Positions 10,892 through 35,019 of a stretch of DNA of 39,856 nt are shown here, in pieces (within the stretch, counting starts at the first letter, position 1; the number at the start of each line of letters is the position of its first letter). This DNA comes from a virus. Its lineage: Duplodnaviria > Caudoviricetes. The notes under the pieces were generated by a model. The model did no database searches and had not been told where the DNA came from. It saw only the letters and a list, made by a program, of their open reading frames with translations. The translations under genes were made by a program, and so were the position numbers. Location of the stretch: positions 1-39,856 of IMG/VR virus record IMGVR_UViG_3300028594_000126; one strand, given 5' to 3'.

Positions 10892-13800
10892 ATGGCCAAA
10901 CTGACAGCGAGATTCGATTTGCAAGACCGTATCTCTAAAAAGCTAAAAACCATCAGCGACAATACGAAAAAACTTGAAAAATCAAGAGACCAACTGAACA
11001 GACCCATTACTCTCAGAGTTAGAGATCAGGCAACTAGAAAATTAAACAGAGTTCACAGGTTTGTCCTCAAGGATATCGCAAAGACGCATACGATGTTTGT
11101 TAAATTAAGAGACCAAGCGACGAGACCGCTTAATAGAATTAATACATTTGTTAAAAGACGAATGCCAAGGACTCATGATTTAATTGTTAGGGCTCAAGAT
11201 AGAACGAGAACGGTGCTTGAAAGAATAAGACGCTATGCAGGAAGGCATCTCTCTGTACCATACATGTTGATGGTTGCTGCGAGAGATAGGGCGACGCCTG
11301 TTTTGCATAAAATAGCTAATTATGCAAGAAGAGCATTGTCTAAGGGTTATAACTTCTCTGTTCGAGCTATCGACATAGCTACTAAAACGGTGGGTCGAAT
11401 AGCTTCGTTTGCCCGAACCGCCATTCCTAGATACCGTGATTTCACGATTAGGGCGTGGGATCGGGCGTCTAGGATTATCGGAACAGTAAGAAGAGCTTTA
11501 TTCTCCATACCCACGATGATTACAGTCACTTTGGCTGTCGTCGGATTAGGTAACTTGACGAGTGCTACAATTGGCTCTGCGATGAACTTCGAAGGCTATG
11601 AAGTTGCTATGCAGCATTGGTTGGATGGCAACAAGAAGCAAGCGGATGAATTAGTGCAATGGATGGGACAGTTTGCTGACTCCACTCCATTCAGTTCTGT
11701 TGAGCTATTCCCAGCTTTATCACGAGGAATCGGTGTAACTGATGGGAATATCGCTGACGCTAAACAATTATTAACAATTGCTTCAAACATGGCAGCCTTA
11801 ACACCTAACCGTACTGTCGAAGACGCAATGGAAGCATTGGCGTCAGCTCAAATGGGTGAATTTGAATTACTCAAAGGCTACAACATGAAGATAACAGCTG
11901 ATGACTACGATGATATGGGATGGTCGGGATTTCTCGATCTAATGGATAGTAGGTTTGAGGACGGTGCGAAAAAGTTCTCCCAAACAGCATCTGGACAATT
12001 GGCTACATTACGTGGTTACACGTCATCCATATTCCGTGAGGCTGGAGTCGGCATTCTAGAATCCATGAAACCACGGCTGGATGCAATCACTACCTGGCTT
12101 GATAATAACCAAGAAACGTGGGGTAGATGGAAAGATACTGTTCAGCAAGCGGGACTGGATGCGTCTGAGTGGCTATTTTCCAAGTTGGAAAACGGATTTT
12201 CACACATTAGAACCAACTATCTTGAAAATGACGACTTTAAAAATCTTGATTTTGAAGGAAAAGTAAAGTTCATTATGGACGACTTGGGAGAATGGTGGAA
12301 TAAAACAGGACGACCATTAATGGCTGATGTCAGCAAAGATGTCGGAGAGGCGATATTTAAAGGTGTTACATGGGGAATAAAAGAAGGAATAAAAGGCATT
12401 GGCTCCATGTGGGCGGACGCTTTCAAAAATCCTAGCGTTGAAGGGTTCGCTGGAGCGGGAATAGCGACCGCTATTGCGGGATCGATACTCTCCTTAGTTT
12501 TAACTCCATTATTCAGAGGGATAAGCGGTATATTCAAAACAGGTAAATGGTTCTGGGATCAGGGCAAGAAAGTCGGGGGATTATTCAGCAAAGGAAAAGG
12601 CAAACCTCCAGTAGTTCCACCTGGAGGAAAAACACCAACGACACCTACGAGTGGTGGAAAGGGTGGAGGGTGGTTTTCGAGGCTCTTTGGCAGGAATAAA
12701 CAACCAGATTACAGAAACCCTTGGTTCGATAGAGGCGCGAAGCCAGTATTGAATGTACCTAATGCTGCTACAAAAGCACCGAAGATTCCAAAGGCGTTAA
12801 CGAAAATAGGGAATTTCGGAAAAAGAATTCCAGTTTTAGGTACATTGCTTAGCGGATTAGCACTTGCTACAGCGCCGAAAGAGGAAAAAGCAGGAGTTGC
12901 TGGTGGTATCGGTGGCGGTATGGCAGGAGCGGCAGCAGGAGCGGCAATTGGTTCTGTAGTTCCTGTGATTGGCACAACAATCGGCGGAATACTCGGCGGT
13001 ATCCTTGGTTCGATTGGTGGTTCAGCCATCGGCGACTGGTTTAGTGATAATTGGTCATCGATAAAAGAGGGGGCTTCAGATGCAGCCTCTTGGGTTTCTG
13101 ATAAATTCAATACCGCTAAAGATGCAATAGGAAGTACATTGTTCAGTTCCGACTGGTGGTTGGGACATTGGGATTCCGTAAAAAACTGGACATCTGATAA
13201 ATGGGACTCCACAGTAGAAATCTGGGACGGCGTTAAAGATACAATCTCAAGCACTATATTCAGTTCGGATTGGTGGCTAGGACATTGGGAATCCGTTAAA
13301 GGGTTTGCCACATCAACATTCTTGAGTGCTAATTGGTGGGCGGAACAAGCTGGGTTTGTCTGGGGTTACCTTGAGTCAACAATCTTTAGCGGGGACTGGT
13401 GGAGCGAACAATGGAGCAAAGTTCAGGAGCTCACCGAAGGGACAATATTCGATGGCGCTTGGTGGACAGACAAGTGGAATGCTGTCATGGAATGGACTTC
13501 TGAAAAGTGGGATTCTGCCGTTGAAATATGGGAATCTGTAAAAACAGCTTTTGCAGAAACCGTATTCAGTTCCGACTGGTGGCTTGGCCATTGGGAGTCG
13601 GTCAAAGGTTGGACGCAAGAGAAATGGGACTCTGCCGTTGTGGTTTGGGAATCCATAACAACTGCATTATCTGACACAGTCTTTAACTCTGGCTGGTGGC
13701 TCGAAAAGTGGGAAGGCGTTAAGGGTTGGACACAGGAGAAGTGGGATTCAGCAGTAACTATTTGGAATTCCATTACTGATAAAATCAGCGAAACAGTCTT

Positions 13801-14458
13801 TAGCTCCGAATGGTGGGGCGGCAAATGGGAATCCGTTAAAGGATGGACTCAAGATAAATGGGATACATTTACGAGTGTCTGGAACTCTGCGAAAGAGAAA
13901 ATCAACGAAACTTTATTCAGCAAAGACTGGTGGAGTGGTAAATGGGAAACTGTTAAAGGTTGGGCTACAACCGCATGGGAAGGCATTAAGAGCATGGCAA
14001 GCGGGTTGGGTGAATCGTTCAATGTAGGACGTGATAGAGGACAAAGTGCTGCTGAACATGCGAATGGTGGCTTTATCACTCGACCGCACTTGGGTCTAGT
14101 TGGCGAAGCAGGACCAGAAGCAATCATTCCTTTATCTCCCAATAGACGTGATCGTGCTATGAGTTTGTATGAAAAAACGGGTCAATTGCTCGGGGTAAAG
14201 CCTTATGCTTATGGAGGTATAGTTGGTGCAGCAACCGCAACATTGCCGCAGGAGCAAGTCACTACCGTTATTTCTGTTGTAAAAGGAGACTCTGGTAAAG
14301 GTGGATCTGGACGGGATATCATTGTTCAGATTACTGGTGATAATTACTACAATGACGAAATGGATGCAGAGAAAGTCGCAGATATAGCAGTGGATGCAAT
14401 TGAGAAGAAGTTGAAGGAAGAATATGACGAAGGCGGGGAGTTGGTAGTGTATGAGTAA
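10892..14458 (+). CDS. Tail tape measure protein
   Basis: 1188 aa; FADSTPFS motif, Gly/Ala transmembrane-like stretch, Trp-rich repeats, HANGG...VGEAGPEAIIPL C-terminus. Confidence 0.93.
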   Translation: MAKLTARFDLQDRISKKLKTISDNTKKLEKSRDQLNRPITLRVRDQATRKLNRVHRFVLKDIAKTHTMFVKLRDQATRPLNRINTFVKRRMPRTHDLIVRAQDRTRTVLERIRRYAGRHLSVPYMLMVAARDRATPVLHKIANYARRALSKGYNFSVRAIDIATKTVGRIASFARTAIPRYRDFTIRAWDRASRIIGTVRRALFSIPTMITVTLAVVGLGNLTSATIGSAMNFEGYEVAMQHWLDGNKKQADELVQWMGQFADSTPFSSVELFPALSRGIGVTDGNIADAKQLLTIASNMAALTPNRTVEDAMEALASAQMGEFELLKGYNMKITADDYDDMGWSGFLDLMDSRFEDGAKKFSQTASGQLATLRGYTSSIFREAGVGILESMKPRLDAITTWLDNNQETWGRWKDTVQQAGLDASEWLFSKLENGFSHIRTNYLENDDFKNLDFEGKVKFIMDDLGEWWNKTGRPLMADVSKDVGEAIFKGVTWGIKEGIKGIGSMWADAFKNPSVEGFAGAGIATAIAGSILSLVLTPLFRGISGIFKTGKWFWDQGKKVGGLFSKGKGKPPVVPPGGKTPTTPTSGGKGGGWFSRLFGRNKQPDYRNPWFDRGAKPVLNVPNAATKAPKIPKALTKIGNFGKRIPVLGTLLSGLALATAPKEEKAGVAGGIGGGMAGAAAGAAIGSVVPVIGTTIGGILGGILGSIGGSAIGDWFSDNWSSIKEGASDAASWVSDKFNTAKDAIGSTLFSSDWWLGHWDSVKNWTSDKWDSTVEIWDGVKDTISSTIFSSDWWLGHWESVKGFATSTFLSANWWAEQAGFVWGYLESTIFSGDWWSEQWSKVQELTEGTIFDGAWWTDKWNAVMEWTSEKWDSAVEIWESVKTAFAETVFSSDWWLGHWESVKGWTQEKWDSAVVVWESITTALSDTVFNSGWWLEKWEGVKGWTQEKWDSAVTIWNSITDKISETVFSSEWWGGKWESVKGWTQDKWDTFTSVWNSAKEKINETLFSKDWWSGKWETVKGWATTAWEGIKSMASGLGESFNVGRDRGQSAAEHANGGFITRPHLGLVGEAGPEAIIPLSPNRRDRAMSLYEKTGQLLGVKPYAYGGIVGAATATLPQEQVTTVISVVKGDSGKGGSGRDIIVQITGDNYYNDEMDAEKVADIAVDAIEKKLKEEYDEGGELVVYE
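13142..13990 (+). repeat. 117-bp (39-aa) Trp-rich repeats in the tape measure gene
   Basis: FSSDWW-type units start at 13142, 13259, 13448, 13565, 13682, 13799 and 13916, with shorter ~21-aa units between 13259 and 13448. Confidence 0.85.
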
Positions 14459-19661: not shown

Positions 19662-20048
19662 ATGATTATTTCACATGCAAATGATGGTGAAAAAGCAATT
19701 TATTCATTGAGTGGCGACAAATTGACTGTTGGTGGTGCTGTAACAATCGATTTACAAGAAAAGCAGCGGACTACCGAGAGGGTTATAGACATTTGTTTAG
19801 ACCGTAACTTAGAGGTTATGCGAGAAGGGTTGAGTGCTTGGTATGTCGCTAACGTGATTATTCCTGCAAAGCGATACTCTTTTCAACCGTCTGGAGAAAA
19901 AGACGAGGAGGGCAACGAGGTTATGGAAGAGATAGAACTCCCTGTGGATCCAACTCAAGTTGAATTGCGCTTATGGGGATTGCCACCACAGTACTTTGAA
20001 AACATGAATCAAGAAGATGAAGAAACAGAACAAGGAGCTGAAGCATAA
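19662..20048 (+). CDS. Hypothetical tail-associated protein upstream of the DGR target
   Basis: SD AAGGGAGG before ATG 19662; stop overlaps the target start (TAATG). Confidence 0.7.
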   Translation: MIISHANDGEKAIYSLSGDKLTVGGAVTIDLQEKQRTTERVIDICLDRNLEVMREGLSAWYVANVIIPAKRYSFQPSGEKDEEGNEVMEEIELPVDPTQVELRLWGLPPQYFENMNQEDEETEQGAEA

Positions 20049-21055
20049 TGCCATTTATCTTATCAGTAAAAGACACATATAGACAAGCTGTCGAGGCAGC
20101 GAGTAACGGAAAGAATACAGTTATGTACGACAACAGAGGGAACCCGTCAATAATGGTTTGCATTCCTCGTTTCAATTTATCCGATGTGATTGACGGAGCG
20201 CCAAATACGCCACACCCAGCATTTATTGTTAATGGTGTTGTTAAGTCGGAAATATGGATCTCGAAATATCAAAACGTTGTTCATGACAACAGGGCTTATT
20301 CACTTCCTGGAATGAACCCACAAACATCCGTTGACTTTGATACATCAAAAGCTTATTGCACTAATAAAAATGGCGATGGTGAAGAGGGTTGGCACTTAAT
20401 GACCAATGCGGAGTGGGCAGCCATTGCGCTATGGTCTAAGAAAAACGGAACAATGCCAAGAGGGAATAATAGTTATGGAAAGGATCATTCCGCACCTTAT
20501 GAGACAGGGCGAGAGGCAACCAGAGATTCAGAAGGCCGCACCTCAAAAATTCTGACTGGATCAGGGCCAGCTTCATGGAGCCATGATCATACAAATGCTG
20601 GCATTTTCGATTTGAACGGTAATGTATGGGAGTGGAACGACGGACTCAGAATTATTGATGGGAAAATTTACGTTCATAAAGACAACGACTTTGAAACCCC
20701 AGACAACATTTCTAATTTTGTCGATACGGGGGCGTTCTTTGATGATGTCGGTGGAATAGTGCTCAATTCATCAAAAACAACAGACAATGAAGGTCAAGTT
20801 TATAAAGAATTTGAAAACTTAGCAGCAGCTTCAGGGTACACCATCCCAGAGTTGCTTAAATATTTAGCTATAGCACCAACTGAGGGCGACCACGGAGGCG
20901 ATAGGGTATATGCAACTCTTGGTGGTGAGCGCTTTTCTCGTCGTGGCGGCACTTGGTCGAACACGTCGACTGCTGGTGTGTTCTACCTGTCCTTGTACCG
21001 CACTCGTTCGGATGTGCATTCGGCTGGTGGGTTTCGCTCCGCTCGGGTTTTGTGA
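20048..21055 (+). CDS. DGR target protein, CLec/FGE-sulfatase-like fold; probable receptor-binding (tropism) protein
   Basis: WHLMTNAEWAAIA, GIFDLNGNVWEW, RGGxW and GFRSA motifs; VR covers all but the last 3 of the final 42 sense codons; tail-tip gene position. Confidence 0.92.
   Translation: MPFILSVKDTYRQAVEAASNGKNTVMYDNRGNPSIMVCIPRFNLSDVIDGAPNTPHPAFIVNGVVKSEIWISKYQNVVHDNRAYSLPGMNPQTSVDFDTSKAYCTNKNGDGEEGWHLMTNAEWAAIALWSKKNGTMPRGNNSYGKDHSAPYETGREATRDSEGRTSKILTGSGPASWSHDHTNAGIFDLNGNVWEWNDGLRIIDGKIYVHKDNDFETPDNISNFVDTGAFFDDVGGIVLNSSKTTDNEGQVYKEFENLAAASGYTIPELLKYLAIAPTEGDHGGDRVYATLGGERFSRRGGTWSNTSTAGVFYLSLYRTRSDVHSAGGFRSARVL
20926..21043 (+). repeat. DGR variable repeat (VR)
   Basis: Ungapped match to 21496-21613 (offset 570) at 105 of 118 bases. 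Confidence 0.97.
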
Positions 21056-21083
21056 TCTGTAATCTGAATAACTGAAATCTGTT

Positions 21084-21105
21084 AGGGGCTGCGGTAGCAG
21101 ACCCT
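21084..21105 (+). promoter_or_regulatory. DGR target-recognition hairpin downstream of VR/IMH
   Basis: AGGGGCTGC-GGTA-GCAGACCCT: 9-bp stem with one mismatch and a GRNA-type 4-nt loop. Confidence 0.8.
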
Positions 21106-21124
21106 TTATTTGAAAGGAAATAAC

Positions 21125-21469
21125 ATGAAAAATGAAAGCGAATTGAAGATACTGCAAAGGTGTTATGACATGATTGAATACGGATATATTGCACTTAGAC
21201 AATTTCCTAGATCAGAAAGGCATACACTTGCAGCGGAAATAAAAACAAGTATGTATGAGCTATTAAAATTAATCATCCGTGCCAATAAAAGATATTTCAA
21301 AAAGACGACATTACAAGACATGGACGTTGAACTTGAAAACTTGAGGTATTTAGTTAGATTGTCTAATTCATTGGGGTTCTTACCATTTAACCGATATGAA
21401 CAATGGTCGAGACAGTTAGACGAACTAGGCAGAATGTTAGGTGGTTGGTTTAAATCTATTAAGAAATAG
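21125..21469 (+). CDS. avd: Accessory variability determinant (Avd), four-helix bundle
   Basis: 114 aa, basic; FPRSERHTLAAEIK and ELGRMLGGW motifs; lies between VR and TR; SD GAAAGGA before ATG 21125. Confidence 0.93.
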   Translation: MKNESELKILQRCYDMIEYGYIALRQFPRSERHTLAAEIKTSMYELLKLIIRANKRYFKKTTLQDMDVELENLRYLVRLSNSLGFLPFNRYEQWSRQLDELGRMLGGWFKSIKK

Positions 21470-21475
21470 CTTTTA

Positions 21476-21747
21476 TGGGGAGTAGGCCATTTACTTGAGC
21501 GCTTTACTCGTCGTGGCGGCAATTGGACGAACACGTCGAATGCTGGTGTGTTCTACCTGAACTTGAACAACACTCGTTCGAATGTGAATTCGAATGGTGG
21601 GTTTCGCTCCGCTGGTTCTCCTCATCCGAAACTGTAAGGTTATTGACCTTAGAGGCAGCATGAAGGAAAACGGGCTTACTTCCCCAGCCAATGGCTGAAA
21701 CATTTAATTACAAGCTAATCAGTTAGTATTCGCACGGTAGTGCGATA
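21476..21747 (+). ncRNA. Predicted structured DGR template RNA (TR plus flanks and spacer)
   Basis: 21476-21488 can pair with 21673-21686; spacer hairpins at 21635-21651, 21685-21697 and 21730-21745. Boundaries are inferred. Confidence 0.65.
21496..21613 (+). repeat. DGR template repeat (TR)
   Basis: Intergenic copy of VR with 24 adenines, 18 of them in nine AAY codons when read in the target frame. Confidence 0.97.
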
Positions 21748-21783
21748 GAAAGGTGATACGGCGTTGTTATCTGATTTATTAAA

Positions 21784-22863
21784 GTGAAACGAATAGGGAA
21801 TTTATACGAAAAAATATATAGTTCCGAGAATTTATTTAAAGCATATTTAAATGCTAGAAAAGACAAGCGTTATCGTCGTGATGTTCTGGAGTTTTCTCAC
21901 GATCTAGAAGGTAATTTGATTAAATTACAACAAGAATTAATGAATGAAACATATAAAATCGGTCTGCATCGAGAGTTTTTTATTTACGAACCTAAAAAGC
22001 GATTAATTACAGCACTTCCGTTCAGAGATAGGGTCATTCAATGGGCGATCCATCTTGTAATCGAGCCTTATTTTGAGAAAAGATTCTATCAGCACTCTTA
22101 TGCATGCCGTCCTGAAAAAGGAGCGCACTTAGCTGTTAAAAATGTACAGAATGAGCTCAGAAGATTAGAGAGGCTTCCAGGCAAGACTTACTACTTAAGT
22201 ATGGATATCAGCAAGTTTTTCTATCGAGTGGATCATGACATCGAAGAAAAAATATACGAAAGAACATTCAAAGACAGAAAGCTACTTAATTTATTAAAAG
22301 TCATACGTGATGCAAATGGTGAAAAGTTCGGCATTCCTCTCGGCGATCATTTTTATGAACAAGAGCGAGAAGATGATGTTGGTATGGCTATAGGAGACCT
22401 GCTGTCACAATTAAGGGCTGGTGTTTACCTTAATGAAGCTGATCAGTACATTAAACACGACATGAGGGTTGAATCATTTTACCGTTATATGGACGACTTC
22501 TTGATACTCTCAAAATGTAAGAAAGAGTTGCGAGGAATACTTGAAGAGGTTGAGCTGTTTCTCGGTGTCGAATTAGGTCTGCAGCTGAATAACAAAACTA
22601 TGATCGCTCCTGCAGCTGGAGGAATTGATTTTGTCGGATACCGAATATGGTCAACTCATGTCAAGGTTCGCAAGTCTACGGCGAAACGAATTACAAGAGC
22701 AAGTAGATTCTTTGTCAAAGCATTTCGCAATGGGTGGATGGAGGCGAAGGACATTCATGCTCGTTTAATGAGCTTTTGGGGAGTTATTAAACATGCCGAC
22801 GCTTATGGTCTTTGGTTAAAAATACTTGGGATAGTTAGATTATCCAGACCAGGGAGCACTTAG
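21784..22863 (+). CDS. DGR reverse transcriptase
   Basis: EPKKRLI..PFRDRVIQ, DISKFF, IGDLLSQ, YRYMDD and GIDFVGY motifs; 359 aa with no obvious maturase or endonuclease domain. Confidence 0.95.
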   Translation: MKRIGNLYEKIYSSENLFKAYLNARKDKRYRRDVLEFSHDLEGNLIKLQQELMNETYKIGLHREFFIYEPKKRLITALPFRDRVIQWAIHLVIEPYFEKRFYQHSYACRPEKGAHLAVKNVQNELRRLERLPGKTYYLSMDISKFFYRVDHDIEEKIYERTFKDRKLLNLLKVIRDANGEKFGIPLGDHFYEQEREDDVGMAIGDLLSQLRAGVYLNEADQYIKHDMRVESFYRYMDDFLILSKCKKELRGILEEVELFLGVELGLQLNNKTMIAPAAGGIDFVGYRIWSTHVKVRKSTAKRITRASRFFVKAFRNGWMEAKDIHARLMSFWGVIKHADAYGLWLKILGIVRLSRPGST

Positions 22864-24817: not shown

Positions 24818-24916
24818 ATGGCACGGTTAAAAAGAAAGGAATTATGGTAAAATCTACTGTATAATAGAAGTATGTTTTATCCCCAAATTCCTGTAAAAGT
24901 CTGTGGATAAGTACAT

Positions 24917-25113
24917 GTAATATACGGGTAATATACAAAAGCACTCCGAACCCCTTACTGTACAGGCTACCTCAGTTACCAAAACGGTAAGTTTTCAAGG
25001 TTCACCAAACCCTCAACCCTATGTGGTTGGGGGTTTTTAGTTTTTATAAGGCTCTATAAATTGCTGCATATTCGCACACATAATATACAAGTAATATACG
25101 GGTAATATACAAA
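24917..25113. other. Putative intact attP with integrase arm-type repeats
   Basis: (G/A)TAATATAC at 24917, 24928 and at 25080, 25091, 25102 (11-bp spacing) flanking a core; immediately downstream of int. Confidence 0.8.
25007..25038 (+). terminator. Intrinsic terminator inside the attP region
   Basis: AAACCCTCAACC-CTATGT-GGTTGGGGGTTT hairpin with T tail. Confidence 0.8.
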
Positions 25114-25133
25114 CTTTTCTAAAGAAAAGCCGC

Positions 25134-26234: not shown

Positions 26235-27200
26235 TTATTGAGTTATATTTGATACTGTTTCAAACCCTTTTGAATTTTCGCTAGGAACAAACGGCAATCC
26301 GTTAAGAGCTTTTTCATCTACATTTTGATAGATTGACGGGTGCATCCAGTATCCGTTAGAAACTTTGTAAAAGTTACTTGAGTCTGCGTAGGTTTGATTT
26401 ACAAAGTTTTTAAAATTAATTTCATCATAATTTTCTTTATCAAAATATGCGATTATCGTTCTTTCTGTTGATTCGTTACCTTTTTGGTCAACCATCGACA
26501 TCATTTGAACAAATCCAATTCCATTTAAATTATTATTATCTTTGACTTCTCTCATAATTGAAGTTGATTCAATAGCGAAATCTTTGAAAGCTGATGTTTC
26601 CGACCAAAATGATCCGTCAGAATAAACAATGATCGCGATACTATCTTCGAGTAAAACTTGTTCAATTTTATCGTGGTTTTTCTTTAGCAATTTATCGATA
26701 GATTTAGCATCGGTAGCGTTAGTTAAATTTATTTCATCTTTAGGTGTTTTTTCTTTGTTAACTTTCGCTGTAACAACTTCAGATTCTGTTGGTTTTTCTT
26801 CATTTTCTTTTTCTTTGGTTTCTTGTTGTTCTTTTTCCTGTTTTTCTTGTTCGGCCTTTTCCTTCTGGGCTTTCTCTTTTCCTTCTTGTTCTTCTTTCTC
26901 TTTGCGCTCTTGTTTCTCTTTCATTTTTTGTTCTTTTTCCTTTTCCTCAGCTTCTGATTTTTCGGCAGCGGCAATTTCTCTTTCTTGTTTTCTTTCTTCC
27001 ATCCTTGCCTTTTGTTCTGGTGTTGGTTCGGGTGTTAGGATAATAGTTGTAATGAAAACCGCAATTGAAACAGTAAGTAATATAGACAACTTTTTAAATG
27101 ACGGCCCCTTCTTGAATATTGCTCGGACAATGAATAAAACGATTGTGACAAAAACTGTGAGCATACTTATCAAAAATAATATGAAAATCAGAACCTCCAT
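26235..27200 (-). CDS. Membrane-anchored protein of the lysogeny module (superinfection-exclusion-like position)
   Basis: Two N-terminal transmembrane helices, E/K/Q-rich stalk, globular C-terminal domain. Confidence 0.75.
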   Translation of the reverse strand: MEVLIFILFLISMLTVFVTIVLFIVRAIFKKGPSFKKLSILLTVSIAVFITTIILTPEPTPEQKARMEERKQEREIAAAEKSEAEEKEKEQKMKEKQERKEKEEQEGKEKAQKEKAEQEKQEKEQQETKEKENEEKPTESEVVTAKVNKEKTPKDEINLTNATDAKSIDKLLKKNHDKIEQVLLEDSIAIIVYSDGSFWSETSAFKDFAIESTSIMREVKDNNNLNGIGFVQMMSMVDQKGNESTERTIIAYFDKENYDEINFKNFVNQTYADSSNFYKVSNGYWMHPSIYQNVDEKALNGLPFVPSENSKGFETVSNITQ

Positions 27201-33338: not shown

Positions 33339-34321
33339 TGGCAAATCAAAACGAAAACCAAGTTGTAGAACAAAACAAGACTGTCGCTACTCAATCTGAA
33401 CGCTTCTTGGCCAATGTGCAAAAGCAATTTGCTGCAGAAGCAGGGGCTCCGGTCGCTTTTACAGATTACGAGAAATCTTTAGCTCAACATCTATTCTTGA
33501 AGGTTGATAACGTTCTGAAAGACTTTGAGGAAAAACGCCAAAAGGATGGAAAGAACAATATAACTCCATATACTTGGCAAAACATTAACATGCGTAAGTT
33601 AGCACTAGATGCTGTGCATAGAGTGAAGTTGGGTCTTGATGCATTAATTCCTAACCATATTCATCCGGTTCCTTATTTCAACCGGAGAGAAGGAAAGTAT
33701 GACCTCGATCTACGCGTGGGATATGTAGGGAAGGCATACTACCGCATCCAATCAGCAGTTGAGACTCCGGTCGATGTAGTGTTCGAACTCGTTTATAGCA
33801 CAGATACATTCAAACCTATTAAAAAGTCATTCAATAATCCTGTGGAGTCTTACGAATTTGAAATAAACAACCCATTTGACCGCGGGAATGTAATTGGAGG
33901 ATTCGGTTACATCGTGTATGAAGATGAGAGAAAAAACACTCTCGTAATGGTGTCAGAAGCAGACTTCGAAAAATCCCGCAAGGCAGCTCAAAGCGATGCG
34001 TTTTGGTCTAAGTATCCGATTGAAATGCGGTACAAGACACTGGTTCACCGGGTGACAGATAGATTAACGATTGATCCTAAGAAAATTAACGCTGCATCTT
34101 ATGCTTATGTTGAAAATCAAGAAAGTGAAACCGAAGCACGCCGTGAAATCAACGAGAACGCCAACAGGGAAGTGATTGACATTGTTCCAGACAATTCCCT
34201 CAATGAACCTGAATTCGAACCAGAACCGGCGGTAAACAAACAAAACAAAGCACCTGAAGAACAACAGCAGACTCAACCACAAGTGCAACAACTAACTGGC
34301 ACGGATGGTCCTGGCTGGTGA
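33338..34321 (+). CDS. recT: RecT-like single-strand annealing protein
   Basis: GYVG, VYSTDTF, RGNVIGGFGYI and FWSKYPIEMRYKT motifs; low-complexity tail. Confidence 0.8.
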   Translation: MANQNENQVVEQNKTVATQSERFLANVQKQFAAEAGAPVAFTDYEKSLAQHLFLKVDNVLKDFEEKRQKDGKNNITPYTWQNINMRKLALDAVHRVKLGLDALIPNHIHPVPYFNRREGKYDLDLRVGYVGKAYYRIQSAVETPVDVVFELVYSTDTFKPIKKSFNNPVESYEFEINNPFDRGNVIGGFGYIVYEDERKNTLVMVSEADFEKSRKAAQSDAFWSKYPIEMRYKTLVHRVTDRLTIDPKKINAASYAYVENQESETEARREINENANREVIDIVPDNSLNEPEFEPEPAVNKQNKAPEEQQQTQPQVQQLTGTDGPGW

Positions 34322-35019
34322 TTGAAATTAAAACTTTAGCAACAGGTAGTTCTGGGAATTGCTACTGGGTTTCAGACGGTAGCACCCAGATCCTGTTGGA
34401 ATGTGGAATCAGTTATAAAGAGATTCAAAAAGCGCTTGATTTTAACACGATGGGAATTTCCGGAGTTTTAGTGACACATGAACATAAAGACCATTCAAAA
34501 GCAGTGAAAGAAGTTTCTAATCGAGGATTCGATGTTTATATGTCACCAGGAACGAAAGAGGCTCTCGGATTGAATCATCATCGAATAAAGACAGTGGAAA
34601 GCAGGAGTCAATTCAAAATCGGTACTTGGACCATATTGCCGTTTGACGTGGAGCATGATGTAAGTGAGCCGTATGGTTTCTTACTCGCTAATCAAGCGGG
34701 AGAAAAACTTTTATTCGCCACTGATACTTTTTATGTTCGTTACCGTTTCAATGGATTAACTCACATCATGATTGAATGCAACTACAGCATGGATATTCTT
34801 AACGAAAACATCAGAACGGGACGAGCACACAAAGGCATGAAAAGGAGGTTGGTAAAATCTCACTTTTCATTAGAAAACGTCAAAGACTTTTTATTGGCGA
34901 ATGACTTGAGTAAAGTGCAGGAAATCCACCTACTCCATCTATCGGACACGAACAGCGATGAGGAGTTGTTTAAAAAGGAGATCCAGGAGCTTACTGGAAA
35001 GTTGGTCTTTGTGCCGTAA
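34318..35019 (+). CDS. Metallo-beta-lactamase-fold hydrolase (probable nuclease)
   Basis: GSSGN, THEHKDH, ATDT, IECNY and HLS motifs. Confidence 0.9.
   Translation: MIEIKTLATGSSGNCYWVSDGSTQILLECGISYKEIQKALDFNTMGISGVLVTHEHKDHSKAVKEVSNRGFDVYMSPGTKEALGLNHHRIKTVESRSQFKIGTWTILPFDVEHDVSEPYGFLLANQAGEKLLFATDTFYVRYRFNGLTHIMIECNYSMDILNENIRTGRAHKGMKRRLVKSHFSLENVKDFLLANDLSKVQEIHLLHLSDTNSDEELFKKEIQELTGKLVFVP

What the first reader, a model, noticed from the sequence alone, without database searches (positions are those of the whole stretch)
20048..22863. Complete DGR diversifying the tail-tip protein of a PBSX/skin-like myophage
Seen: VR 20926-21043 and TR 21496-21613 align without gaps over 118 bp. There are 13 mismatches and every one is an A in TR (A>C 6, A>T 4, A>G 3), changing 10 residues: TR reads ERFTRRGGNWTNTSNAGVFYLNLNNTRSNVNSNGGFRSA, VR reads ERFSRRGGTWSNTSTAGVFYLSLYRTRSDVHSAGGFRSA. 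An Avd-like gene and a YMDD RT flank TR. Established: this is the Bordetella BPP-1 mtd-avd-TR-brt mutagenic retrohoming layout. Inference: the element has been active and switches host tropism of a contractile-tail Bacillaceae phage. I cannot tell whether this particular element is already described.
Basis: partly seen in the sequence, partly recalled or inferred. Interest (0 to 1): 0.93.

Follow-up and report, generated by a model that had tools for sequence, protein, structure and literature searches.

The report
Phage hypermutation cassette, variant reverse transcriptase
This bacterial virus carries an intact copy of a well-known hypermutation cassette that likely rewrites the host-binding face of a predicted tail protein; it is an ordinary member of a common family, apart from unusual residues beside the enzyme's active site whose effect is untested.

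Summary
Confirmed. VR 20926-21043 and TR 21496-21613 align gap-free over 118 bp; 13 of 13 mismatches are TR adenines (P about 4e-11), changing 10 residues. All BPP-1-type parts are present: target, GRNA hairpin, Avd, TR with covarying flanking duplex, and an RT with IGxxxSQ and YMDD that groups with DGR RTs. The target's model matches the solved DGR variable protein TaqVP (TM 0.91). Bacillus phage BalMu-1 has the same cassette and gene order. Relatives show past activity: a second data set has a different adenine-restricted VR that shares two non-A changes with a matching TR. Current activity, tail-tip location and tropism switching are inferred; no raw reads were available. The host is likely Bacillales in the broad sense. 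One oddity: RT motif 4 reads IGDLLSQLRAG rather than the usual IGNLTSQLFAN. It marks an 11-protein clade with a long stem branch. The known mutagenic residues are kept and the mutation spectrum looks normal, so it is likely a compensated structural change. The scan noted similar DGRs on other DNA before. Verdict: new member of a very common known class; low interest.

The parts
20048..21055 (+). Target gene, 335 aa, FGE-subtype C-type-lectin-fold variable protein; likely receptor-binding tail protein
   Evidence: Pfam FGE-sulfatase E 5.5e-10; phrog_2889 E 1.5e-117; phmmer to PDB 5vf4 E 4e-68; model pLDDT 94.1, Foldseek TM 0.91 to TaqVP 5vf4
20926..21043 (+). Variable repeat (VR), codons 294-332; its GC-rich 3' end is the likely IMH
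   Evidence: homology ends at 21043 and VR and TR diverge after it
21084..21105 (+). Hairpin/cruciform, 9-bp stem with one G.A mismatch (21088/21101), GGTA loop (GRNA type)
   Evidence: a GRNA hairpin in 13 of 14 related loci examined
21125..21469 (+). avd (accessory variability determinant), about 114 aa
   Evidence: NF033474 128.8 bits, cut-off 80; Pfam bAvd E 2.6e-37; 76% to BalMu-1 Avd
21477..21488 (+). Upstream strand of the 12-bp duplex that brackets TR (analogue of the BPP-1 avd:Sp 'cPRT Stop' duplex)
   Evidence: 97% of cells paired, 6 of 12 pairs with changes on both sides in 12 loci
21496..21613 (+). Template repeat (TR), 24 adenines in 15 codons, mostly AAY/ACN
21614..21783 (+). Spacer RNA: predicted pairing with the TR 3' flank (template:primer-like), the downstream strand 21673-21684 of the bracketing duplex, and further stem-loops
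21784..22863 (+). DGR reverse transcriptase, 359 aa, GTG start; R73, I203, Q209 and YMDD kept; variant motif 4 IGDLLSQLRAG

Best explanation
This is an intact diversity-generating retroelement of the BPP-1 type in a contractile-tailed temperate phage, which likely copies an adenine-mutagenised cDNA of TR over the 3' end of a C-type-lectin-fold gene predicted to be the phage's receptor-binding tail protein. By analogy with BPP-1 (inferred, not tested here): a TR-containing RNA folds so that its flanks pair (21477-21488 with 21673-21684) and the spacer primes cDNA synthesis in cis; RT with Avd misincorporates opposite adenines; the cDNA replaces VR, guided by the GC-rich VR end and the GGTA hairpin. 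The 15 adenine-containing codons give about 1.6e14 possible protein variants. The element has acted within this lineage (shown from relatives). The unusual motif-4 residues (D205, R211, G213) are most likely a compensated structural change that leaves adenine mutagenesis intact.
For: 13 of 13 mismatches at TR adenines, P 3.6e-11. Avd above curated cut-off. RT's best solved relative is BPP-1 bRT (8ub7, E 1e-53) against E 6e-23 for the next, a group II intron-type RT. Quick tree: window RT lies with 4 named phage DGR RTs, apart from 4 group II intron RTs, SH-aLRT 100. Signature [I/V/L]GxxxSQ and the residues equivalent to bRT R74, I181, Q187 are kept. Target model TM 0.91 to TaqVP. Hairpin fits 5'-GRNA of PMC3240598 (passages). 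Flanking duplex covaries: whole structure 16 of 26 pairs with changes on both sides, 0 of 500 shuffles as high, slid controls at most 7. Activity in the lineage: relative P0126 (89% identical) differs at 11 of 15 adenine codons, 1 of 24 other VR residues and 23 of 293 residues outside (Fisher p 8e-6 and 4e-9); P0129's whole VR is reachable from this TR by A changes alone. In run X2 (another study) a relative's VR differs from this TR at 16 places; of the 12 listed, 9 are TR adenines and 2 non-A changes (21514, 21517) are shared with a TR contig of that run, as TR-to-VR copying predicts. Mutation spectrum does not differ from 16 hand-picked relatives with the usual motif (13 of 24 vs 180 of 359 adenines changed, p 0.83).
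Against: No raw reads: both holders are contigs, so present-day activity is untested. The X2 contigs are short, of depth about 3 and unlinked, the third non-A change (21563) has no TR cover, and X2's RT motif was not seen. Pairing of relatives' RT and target proteins rests only on equal contig lengths. The hairpin has one mismatch and lies 40 nt after the end of VR/TR homology, against 4-34 bp in PMC3240598. The RT start is a GTG with the weakest Shine-Dalgarno match of 27 loci. TaqVP is monomeric and its paper does not place it in a virion. The spectrum test has only 13 events and little power. The careful tree did not finish and long branches meet.
Confidence: 0.93

Rival explanations
1. The cassette is a true DGR but is now dormant in this phage: the VR differences are relics, and the weak RT start, the hairpin mismatch or the motif-4 change has silenced or nearly silenced it.
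For: G.A mismatch in the hairpin, whereas stem integrity matters in BPP-1 (PMC3240598, passages); no Shine-Dalgarno before the RT GTG; no VR variant of this same phage in the contigs of run X1, which cannot show rare variants.
Against: All ORFs are intact; VR has 0 non-A differences from TR, so little drift since the last copying; the variant RT is conserved over 11 proteins at 67-91% identity; relatives of the clade carry different adenine-restricted VRs.
Confidence: 0.15
2. The target is not the receptor-binding tail tip but another virion-surface or secreted adhesin (for example one binding matrix or surfaces), so diversification does not change host range.
For: TaqVP, the closest structure, is a single-domain monomer without Mtd's trimerising domains (PMC6328139, parts 1-2 of 4 read); no direct virion evidence found for this family.
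Against: The gene follows baseplate J, a Mu gp48-like gene and three small genes, and precedes the lysis genes; no other long fibre gene lies in that stretch; weak match to a PHROG tail family (phrog_5302, E 3e-14); homologues are annotated 'antireceptor' or Mtd-like by depositors (annotation, not test).
Confidence: 0.15
3. The motif-4 variant RT has altered chemistry (different misincorporation rate or base bias, or a different way of holding the incoming nucleotide), making this a mechanistic variant of DGRs.
For: D205/R211/G213 occur together in 11 of 120 close homologues and in 0 of 147 alignable 50%-cluster representatives; the clade has a long stem (0.68, SH-aLRT 100); the residues flank I203, G204 and Q209, whose bRT equivalents contact template and dNTP (bioRxiv 2023.10.23.563531, parts 1-2 of 5 read); bRT changes at nearby L184 shift the bias (PMC7826257, passages).
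Against: Observed outcome is normal: A-only, fraction and base mix not different from relatives. D205 co-occurs with R or K at 211 in two other lineages (P0057; L133), which points to a salt bridge replacing N/F packing; but 2 of 147 representatives have D or E there without a basic partner. DiGReF already reports that motif-4 variants keep adenine exchange (PMC3521204, passages).
Confidence: 0.1
4. The repeat is a chance or ordinary duplication next to a group II intron or retron RT.
For: NCBIfam's best RT model is group II RT/maturase, but at 126.5 bits against a cut-off of 300.
Against: 13 of 13 adenine-specific mismatches; IGxxxSQ, not QGxxxSP; tree; Avd; no Rfam match in the window.
Confidence: 0.01

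Closest known systems
Bordetella phage BPP-1 DGR (mtd-avd-TR-brt)
   Same: Gene order, adenine-specific VR/TR, GRNA hairpin after VR, duplex bracketing TR, RT signature and YMDD; RT 35.7% identical
   Different: Gram-positive host, contractile tail; target of TaqVP type, only distantly like Mtd (Foldseek TM about 0.31); RT motif 4 has A, D, L, R, G where bRT has P180, S183, T185, F189, N191
Bacillus phage BalMu-1 cassette (NC_030945, gp50-gp53)
   Same: Same order from baseplate to target, avd, TR, RT, lysis genes; target 47%, Avd 76%, RT 48-49% identical; 10 of 11 VR/TR mismatches at TR adenines; GGTA hairpin
   Different: BalMu-1 RT has the usual IGNLTSQLFAN; BalMu-1 is a Mu-like phage (recalled, from its name), this one has a tyrosine integrase. 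No paper on its DGR among the 3 listings naming BalMu-1 (listings only)
Thermus aquaticus prophage DGR and TaqVP (PDB 5VF4; PMC6328139)
   Same: Same FGE-type CLec fold over the whole protein (TM 0.91, 38% identity), C-terminal VR of about 40 residues, same cassette layout
   Different: Target is about 45 residues shorter; other phylum
Faecalibacterium phage Lagaffe DGR (PMC5883640)
   Same: FGE-type target (39.5%), Avd, RT (41%); read variation in its VR reported as activity (passages)
   Different: Gut Clostridia host; usual motif 4 (IGNLTSQLLAN)

Membership tests
Diversity-generating retroelement | VR and TR near-identical, differing at TR adenines | tested here: met
   13 of 13, P 3.6e-11
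Diversity-generating retroelement | VR lies in the 3' end of a protein-coding target; TR non-coding | tested here: met
   VR = codons 294-332 of 335; TR lies between avd stop and RT start
Diversity-generating retroelement | RT of the DGR clade with [I/V/L]GxxxSQ and catalytic YxDD | tested here: met
   IGDLLSQ, YMDD; best PDB hit bRT; tree apart from group II RTs (motif definition from PMC7826257)
Diversity-generating retroelement | Accessory protein Avd | tested here: met
   NF033474 128.8 bits over cut-off 80
Diversity-generating retroelement | CLec-fold target | tested here: met
   Model pLDDT 94, TM 0.91 to TaqVP
Phage (BPP-1-type) DGR | GC-rich hairpin with GRNA loop downstream of VR | tested here: met
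   8 of 9 pairs, GGTA loop, one mismatch; spacing slightly longer than published range
Phage (BPP-1-type) DGR | RNA flanks of TR that pair (upstream:spacer duplex) | tested here: met
   6 of 12 pairs with two-sided changes in 12 loci; the structure was derived from this alignment, so counts lean towards it
Phage (BPP-1-type) DGR | Distinct IMH and IMH* that set direction | tested here: inconclusive
   VR and TR share a GC-rich end and then diverge; boundaries cannot be fixed from sequence
Diversity-generating retroelement | Ongoing mutagenic retrohoming | not testable with these tools
   Only contigs held; lineage-level activity shown from relatives
Tropism-switching receptor-binding protein (Mtd-like role) | Virion location and receptor binding that changes with VR | not testable with these tools
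   Gene position and fold only
Group II intron RT | QGxxxSP motif, score above TIGR04416 cut-off, intron RNA | tested here: not met
   126.5 vs 300 bits; motif; no Rfam hit
PBSX/skin-like contractile-tail phage | Xkd/Yqb-type head and tail genes with sheath and tube | tested here: met
   Pfam XkdF, XkdN, YQBQ, sheath, tube, Baseplate_J; sheath 52.5% and terminase 62.6% to Bacillus phage PBP180

The most novel reading that the evidence does not exclude
A small Bacillales phage clade runs its DGR with a rebuilt nucleotide-binding helix (IGDLLSQLRAG; D205, R211, G213 replacing near-invariant N, F, N). This natural active-site variant changes the rate or base bias of adenine mutagenesis and gives a direct handle on the open question of why DGR enzymes misread only adenine, and a new enzyme for targeted mutagenesis.
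Probability: 0.1. Interest if true: 0.55.

Novelty: new member of a known kind. Interest (0 to 1): 0.24.

Why it matters
As a DGR it adds one more case to a class with about 31,000 surveyed members (figure quoted in bioRxiv 2023.10.23.563531) and with a cultured Bacillus phage example. The only point for a specialist is the RT: three positions that are nearly fixed in its relatives, on the helix that carries the residues known to set adenine misincorporation, are replaced across a whole clade that still appears to mutate adenines. Either result of an assay is informative: no change would show these positions are structural; a change would identify new fidelity determinants.

Tried and rejected
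No RNA holder listed. Run X1 may be the source of the window and was not counted as independent. No second VR: the repeat scan of the whole window showed one TR copy pair among the 20 largest families, and the 'own' search found no second match; the record is about 74% complete, so a remote target is not excluded. Promoter scan gave 5 sites against 8.5 expected by chance: no information. Rfam: 0 matches. The careful tree did not finish; the quick tree is reported. A conserved leader peptide coupling translation of RT was considered: a TTG 20 nt upstream in frame with the overlapping TGA occurs in 6 of 26 related loci, but there it sits inside their Shine-Dalgarno region, so it is probably incidental. 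Literature: no paper for DGR+Bacillales+phage+host, none for the motif string GDLLSQ, 1 unrelated listing for DGR+prophage+Firmicutes+Geobacillus; subscription papers and large survey supplements (e.g. of PMC8144416, not opened) may already list this element or motif. No complex prediction was sent and the RT was not folded, since the tools return no distances to test the proposed D205-R211 salt bridge.
Full report
Observation. The repeat pair is real: 20926-21043 and 21496-21613, 118 nt, no gaps. All 13 mismatches are adenines in the downstream copy (A>C 6, A>T 4, A>G 3), all at codon positions 1 or 2, changing 10 residues; with 24 adenines in TR the chance of this is 3.6e-11. The 15 adenine-containing codons allow about 1.6e14 protein variants.

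Anatomy. The target (20048-21055) matches Pfam FGE-sulfatase and phrog_2889. Its only solved relative by sequence is PDB 5VF4 (E 4e-68), which is TaqVP, the DGR variable protein of a Thermus aquaticus prophage (PMC6328139; parts 1-2 of 4 and a term search read). A model built on 119 sequences has pLDDT 94.1 and TM 0.91 to TaqVP, with TvpA, FGE and Mtd far behind. After the stop codon lies a hairpin, 21084-21105, with 8 of 9 pairs and a GGTA loop, fitting the GRNA consensus of PMC3240598 (passages); 13 of 14 related loci examined have such a hairpin (11 by the strict script, 2 more by folding, none in L053). Avd passes the curated NCBIfam cut-off. The RNA around TR folds better than 99 of 100 shuffles (z -3.0). 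In 12 loci a 12-bp duplex joins the stretch before TR to the spacer, with 97% of cells paired and 6 of 12 pairs changed on both sides; over all 26 non-TR pairs 0 of 500 shuffles reach the observed value and slid controls fall to at most 7 pairs. This is the position of the avd:Sp 'cPRT Stop' duplex in the BPP-1 structure (bioRxiv 2023.10.23.563531, parts 1-2 of 5 read). The structure was derived from the same alignment, so the counts lean in its favour.

The RT. Its best solved relative is BPP-1 bRT (E 1e-53; next E 6e-23). In a quick tree of 39 rows (30 of the 120 homologues plus the window RT, 4 named phage DGR RTs, 4 group II intron RTs) it groups with the DGR RTs, SH-aLRT 100; the careful search did not finish and long branches meet. 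It keeps the signature [I/V/L]GxxxSQ and the equivalents of R74 and I181, which promote adenine mutagenesis in bRT (PMC7826257, passages).

The phage. The window is a whole virus record of 39,856 bases, about 74% complete, with sheath, tube, baseplate J and Xkd/Yqb-type genes, integrase, repressor, antirepressor and RecT. Sheath and terminase are 52.5% and 62.6% identical to Bacillus phage PBP180. Named homologues of target and RT come from Sporosarcina, Heyndrickxia, Oceanobacillus, Virgibacillus, Lentibacillus and Geobacillus, so the host is likely Bacillales in the broad sense. The target follows the baseplate genes and precedes the lysis genes, and no other long fibre gene lies there; the tail-tip role rests on that and on the fold.

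Activity. No raw reads are served; both holders are contigs and X1 may be the source, so present activity is untested. Lineage activity is supported. P0126 (89% identical) differs at 11 of 15 adenine codons, 1 of 24 other VR residues and 23 of 293 residues outside VR (p 8e-6 and 4e-9). All 39 VR residues of P0129 and 38 of 39 of P0126 can be reached from this TR by adenine changes alone; for P0128 3 cannot. In run X2, from another study, a relative's VR differs from this TR at 16 places; of the 12 listed, 9 are adenines, 2 non-A changes are shared with a TR contig of the same run, and 1 has no TR cover. Shared VR-TR changes are what copying from TR to VR predicts. These contigs are short, of depth about 3 and unlinked.

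The one oddity. Motif 4 reads GMAIGDLLSQLRAG. Among 120 close homologues position 205 is N in 108, 211 is F in 99 and 213 is N in 109; the D/R/G triple occurs in 11, including this one. These 11 (67-91% identical to the window RT; one from Sporosarcina sp. ITBMC105) form one clade with a long stem (0.68, SH-aLRT 100). None of 147 alignable representatives at 50% identity has D with R/K. The neighbours I203, G204 and Q209 correspond to bRT residues that touch template and dNTP. Against a functional shift: the outcome is still A-only, and the fraction (13 of 24 vs 180 of 359) and base mix do not differ from 16 hand-picked relatives with the usual motif (p 0.36-0.83, low power). D205 also pairs with R or K at 211 in two other lineages, which suggests a salt bridge replacing a packing contact (inference; 2 representatives have an acidic residue without a basic partner). 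DiGReF noted that motif-4 variants keep adenine exchange (PMC3521204, passages). I found no paper with the motif string.

Comparison and novelty. Bacillus phage BalMu-1 has the same cassette in the same place (target 47%, Avd 76%, RT 48-49%; 10 of 11 mismatches at adenines). Lagaffe has an FGE-type target with read-level evidence of activity (PMC5883640, passages). Phage DGRs with tail targets in Firmicutes make up major clades of a global survey (PMC8144416, passages). The scan itself noted similar elements in other genomes, one in a Lentibacillus prophage (unchecked notes). Searches for a paper on this element or on Bacillales phage DGRs found none, but survey supplements that I did not open may list it.

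Verdict. A genuine, intact, BPP-1-type phage DGR: new member of a known kind, interest 0.24. The boldest reading left open, an RT with altered mutagenic chemistry, has about 10% probability and can be tested directly in vitro.

Noticed in passing
window 24818-25133: Endolysin and integrase genes end facing each other over 316 bp with two pairs of GTAATATAC repeats (24917/24928, 25091/25102) and no host DNA between: looks like attP of the excised or packaged form. The core site was not identified.
   Followed up: partly
window 21764-21787: RT starts at GTG with the weakest Shine-Dalgarno match of 27 loci; a 7-codon TTG-to-TGA mini-ORF overlaps the start (GTGA). L033 and L046 show ATT and L053 GTA at the aligned start, in line with earlier scan notes on weak DGR RT starts.
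   Followed up: partly
P0057 and L133 (RT motif 4): D at 205 with R or K at 211 appears in two further lineages (IGDLLSQFRAN, VGDLISQPKAN), suggesting a recurrent compensatory pair.
   Followed up: partly
P0178, P0249-P0252: Five members of one 90% cluster of target proteins differ at 19 columns from 297 to 326 of about 334, against 25 columns before that, most of them from one sequence; two lie on contigs of the same lengths as variant-motif RTs.
   Followed up: partly
L031, L040, L035, L036, L039, L041, L042, L051, L052: Related target genes with no RT, or with neither Avd nor RT, within the DNA fetched: possible cassettes that lost the DGR, or short flanks.
   Followed up: no
L024, L025: DGRs with TR downstream of the RT; L025 has two VRs, one on each side of TR.
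   Followed up: no
window 13114-13957: Tape-measure gene (10892-14458) carries Trp-rich repeats at spacings of 63 and 117 nt.
   Followed up: no
window 34318-35019: Metallo-beta-lactamase-fold gene after RecT, weak match to anti-Pycsar Apyc1 (E 1.5e-4, below cut-off); likely the usual recombination-module nuclease.
   Followed up: no
window 26235-27200 (-): Membrane protein with a charged low-complexity region between integrase and the ImmA-type peptidase; candidate superinfection-exclusion or moron gene.
   Followed up: no
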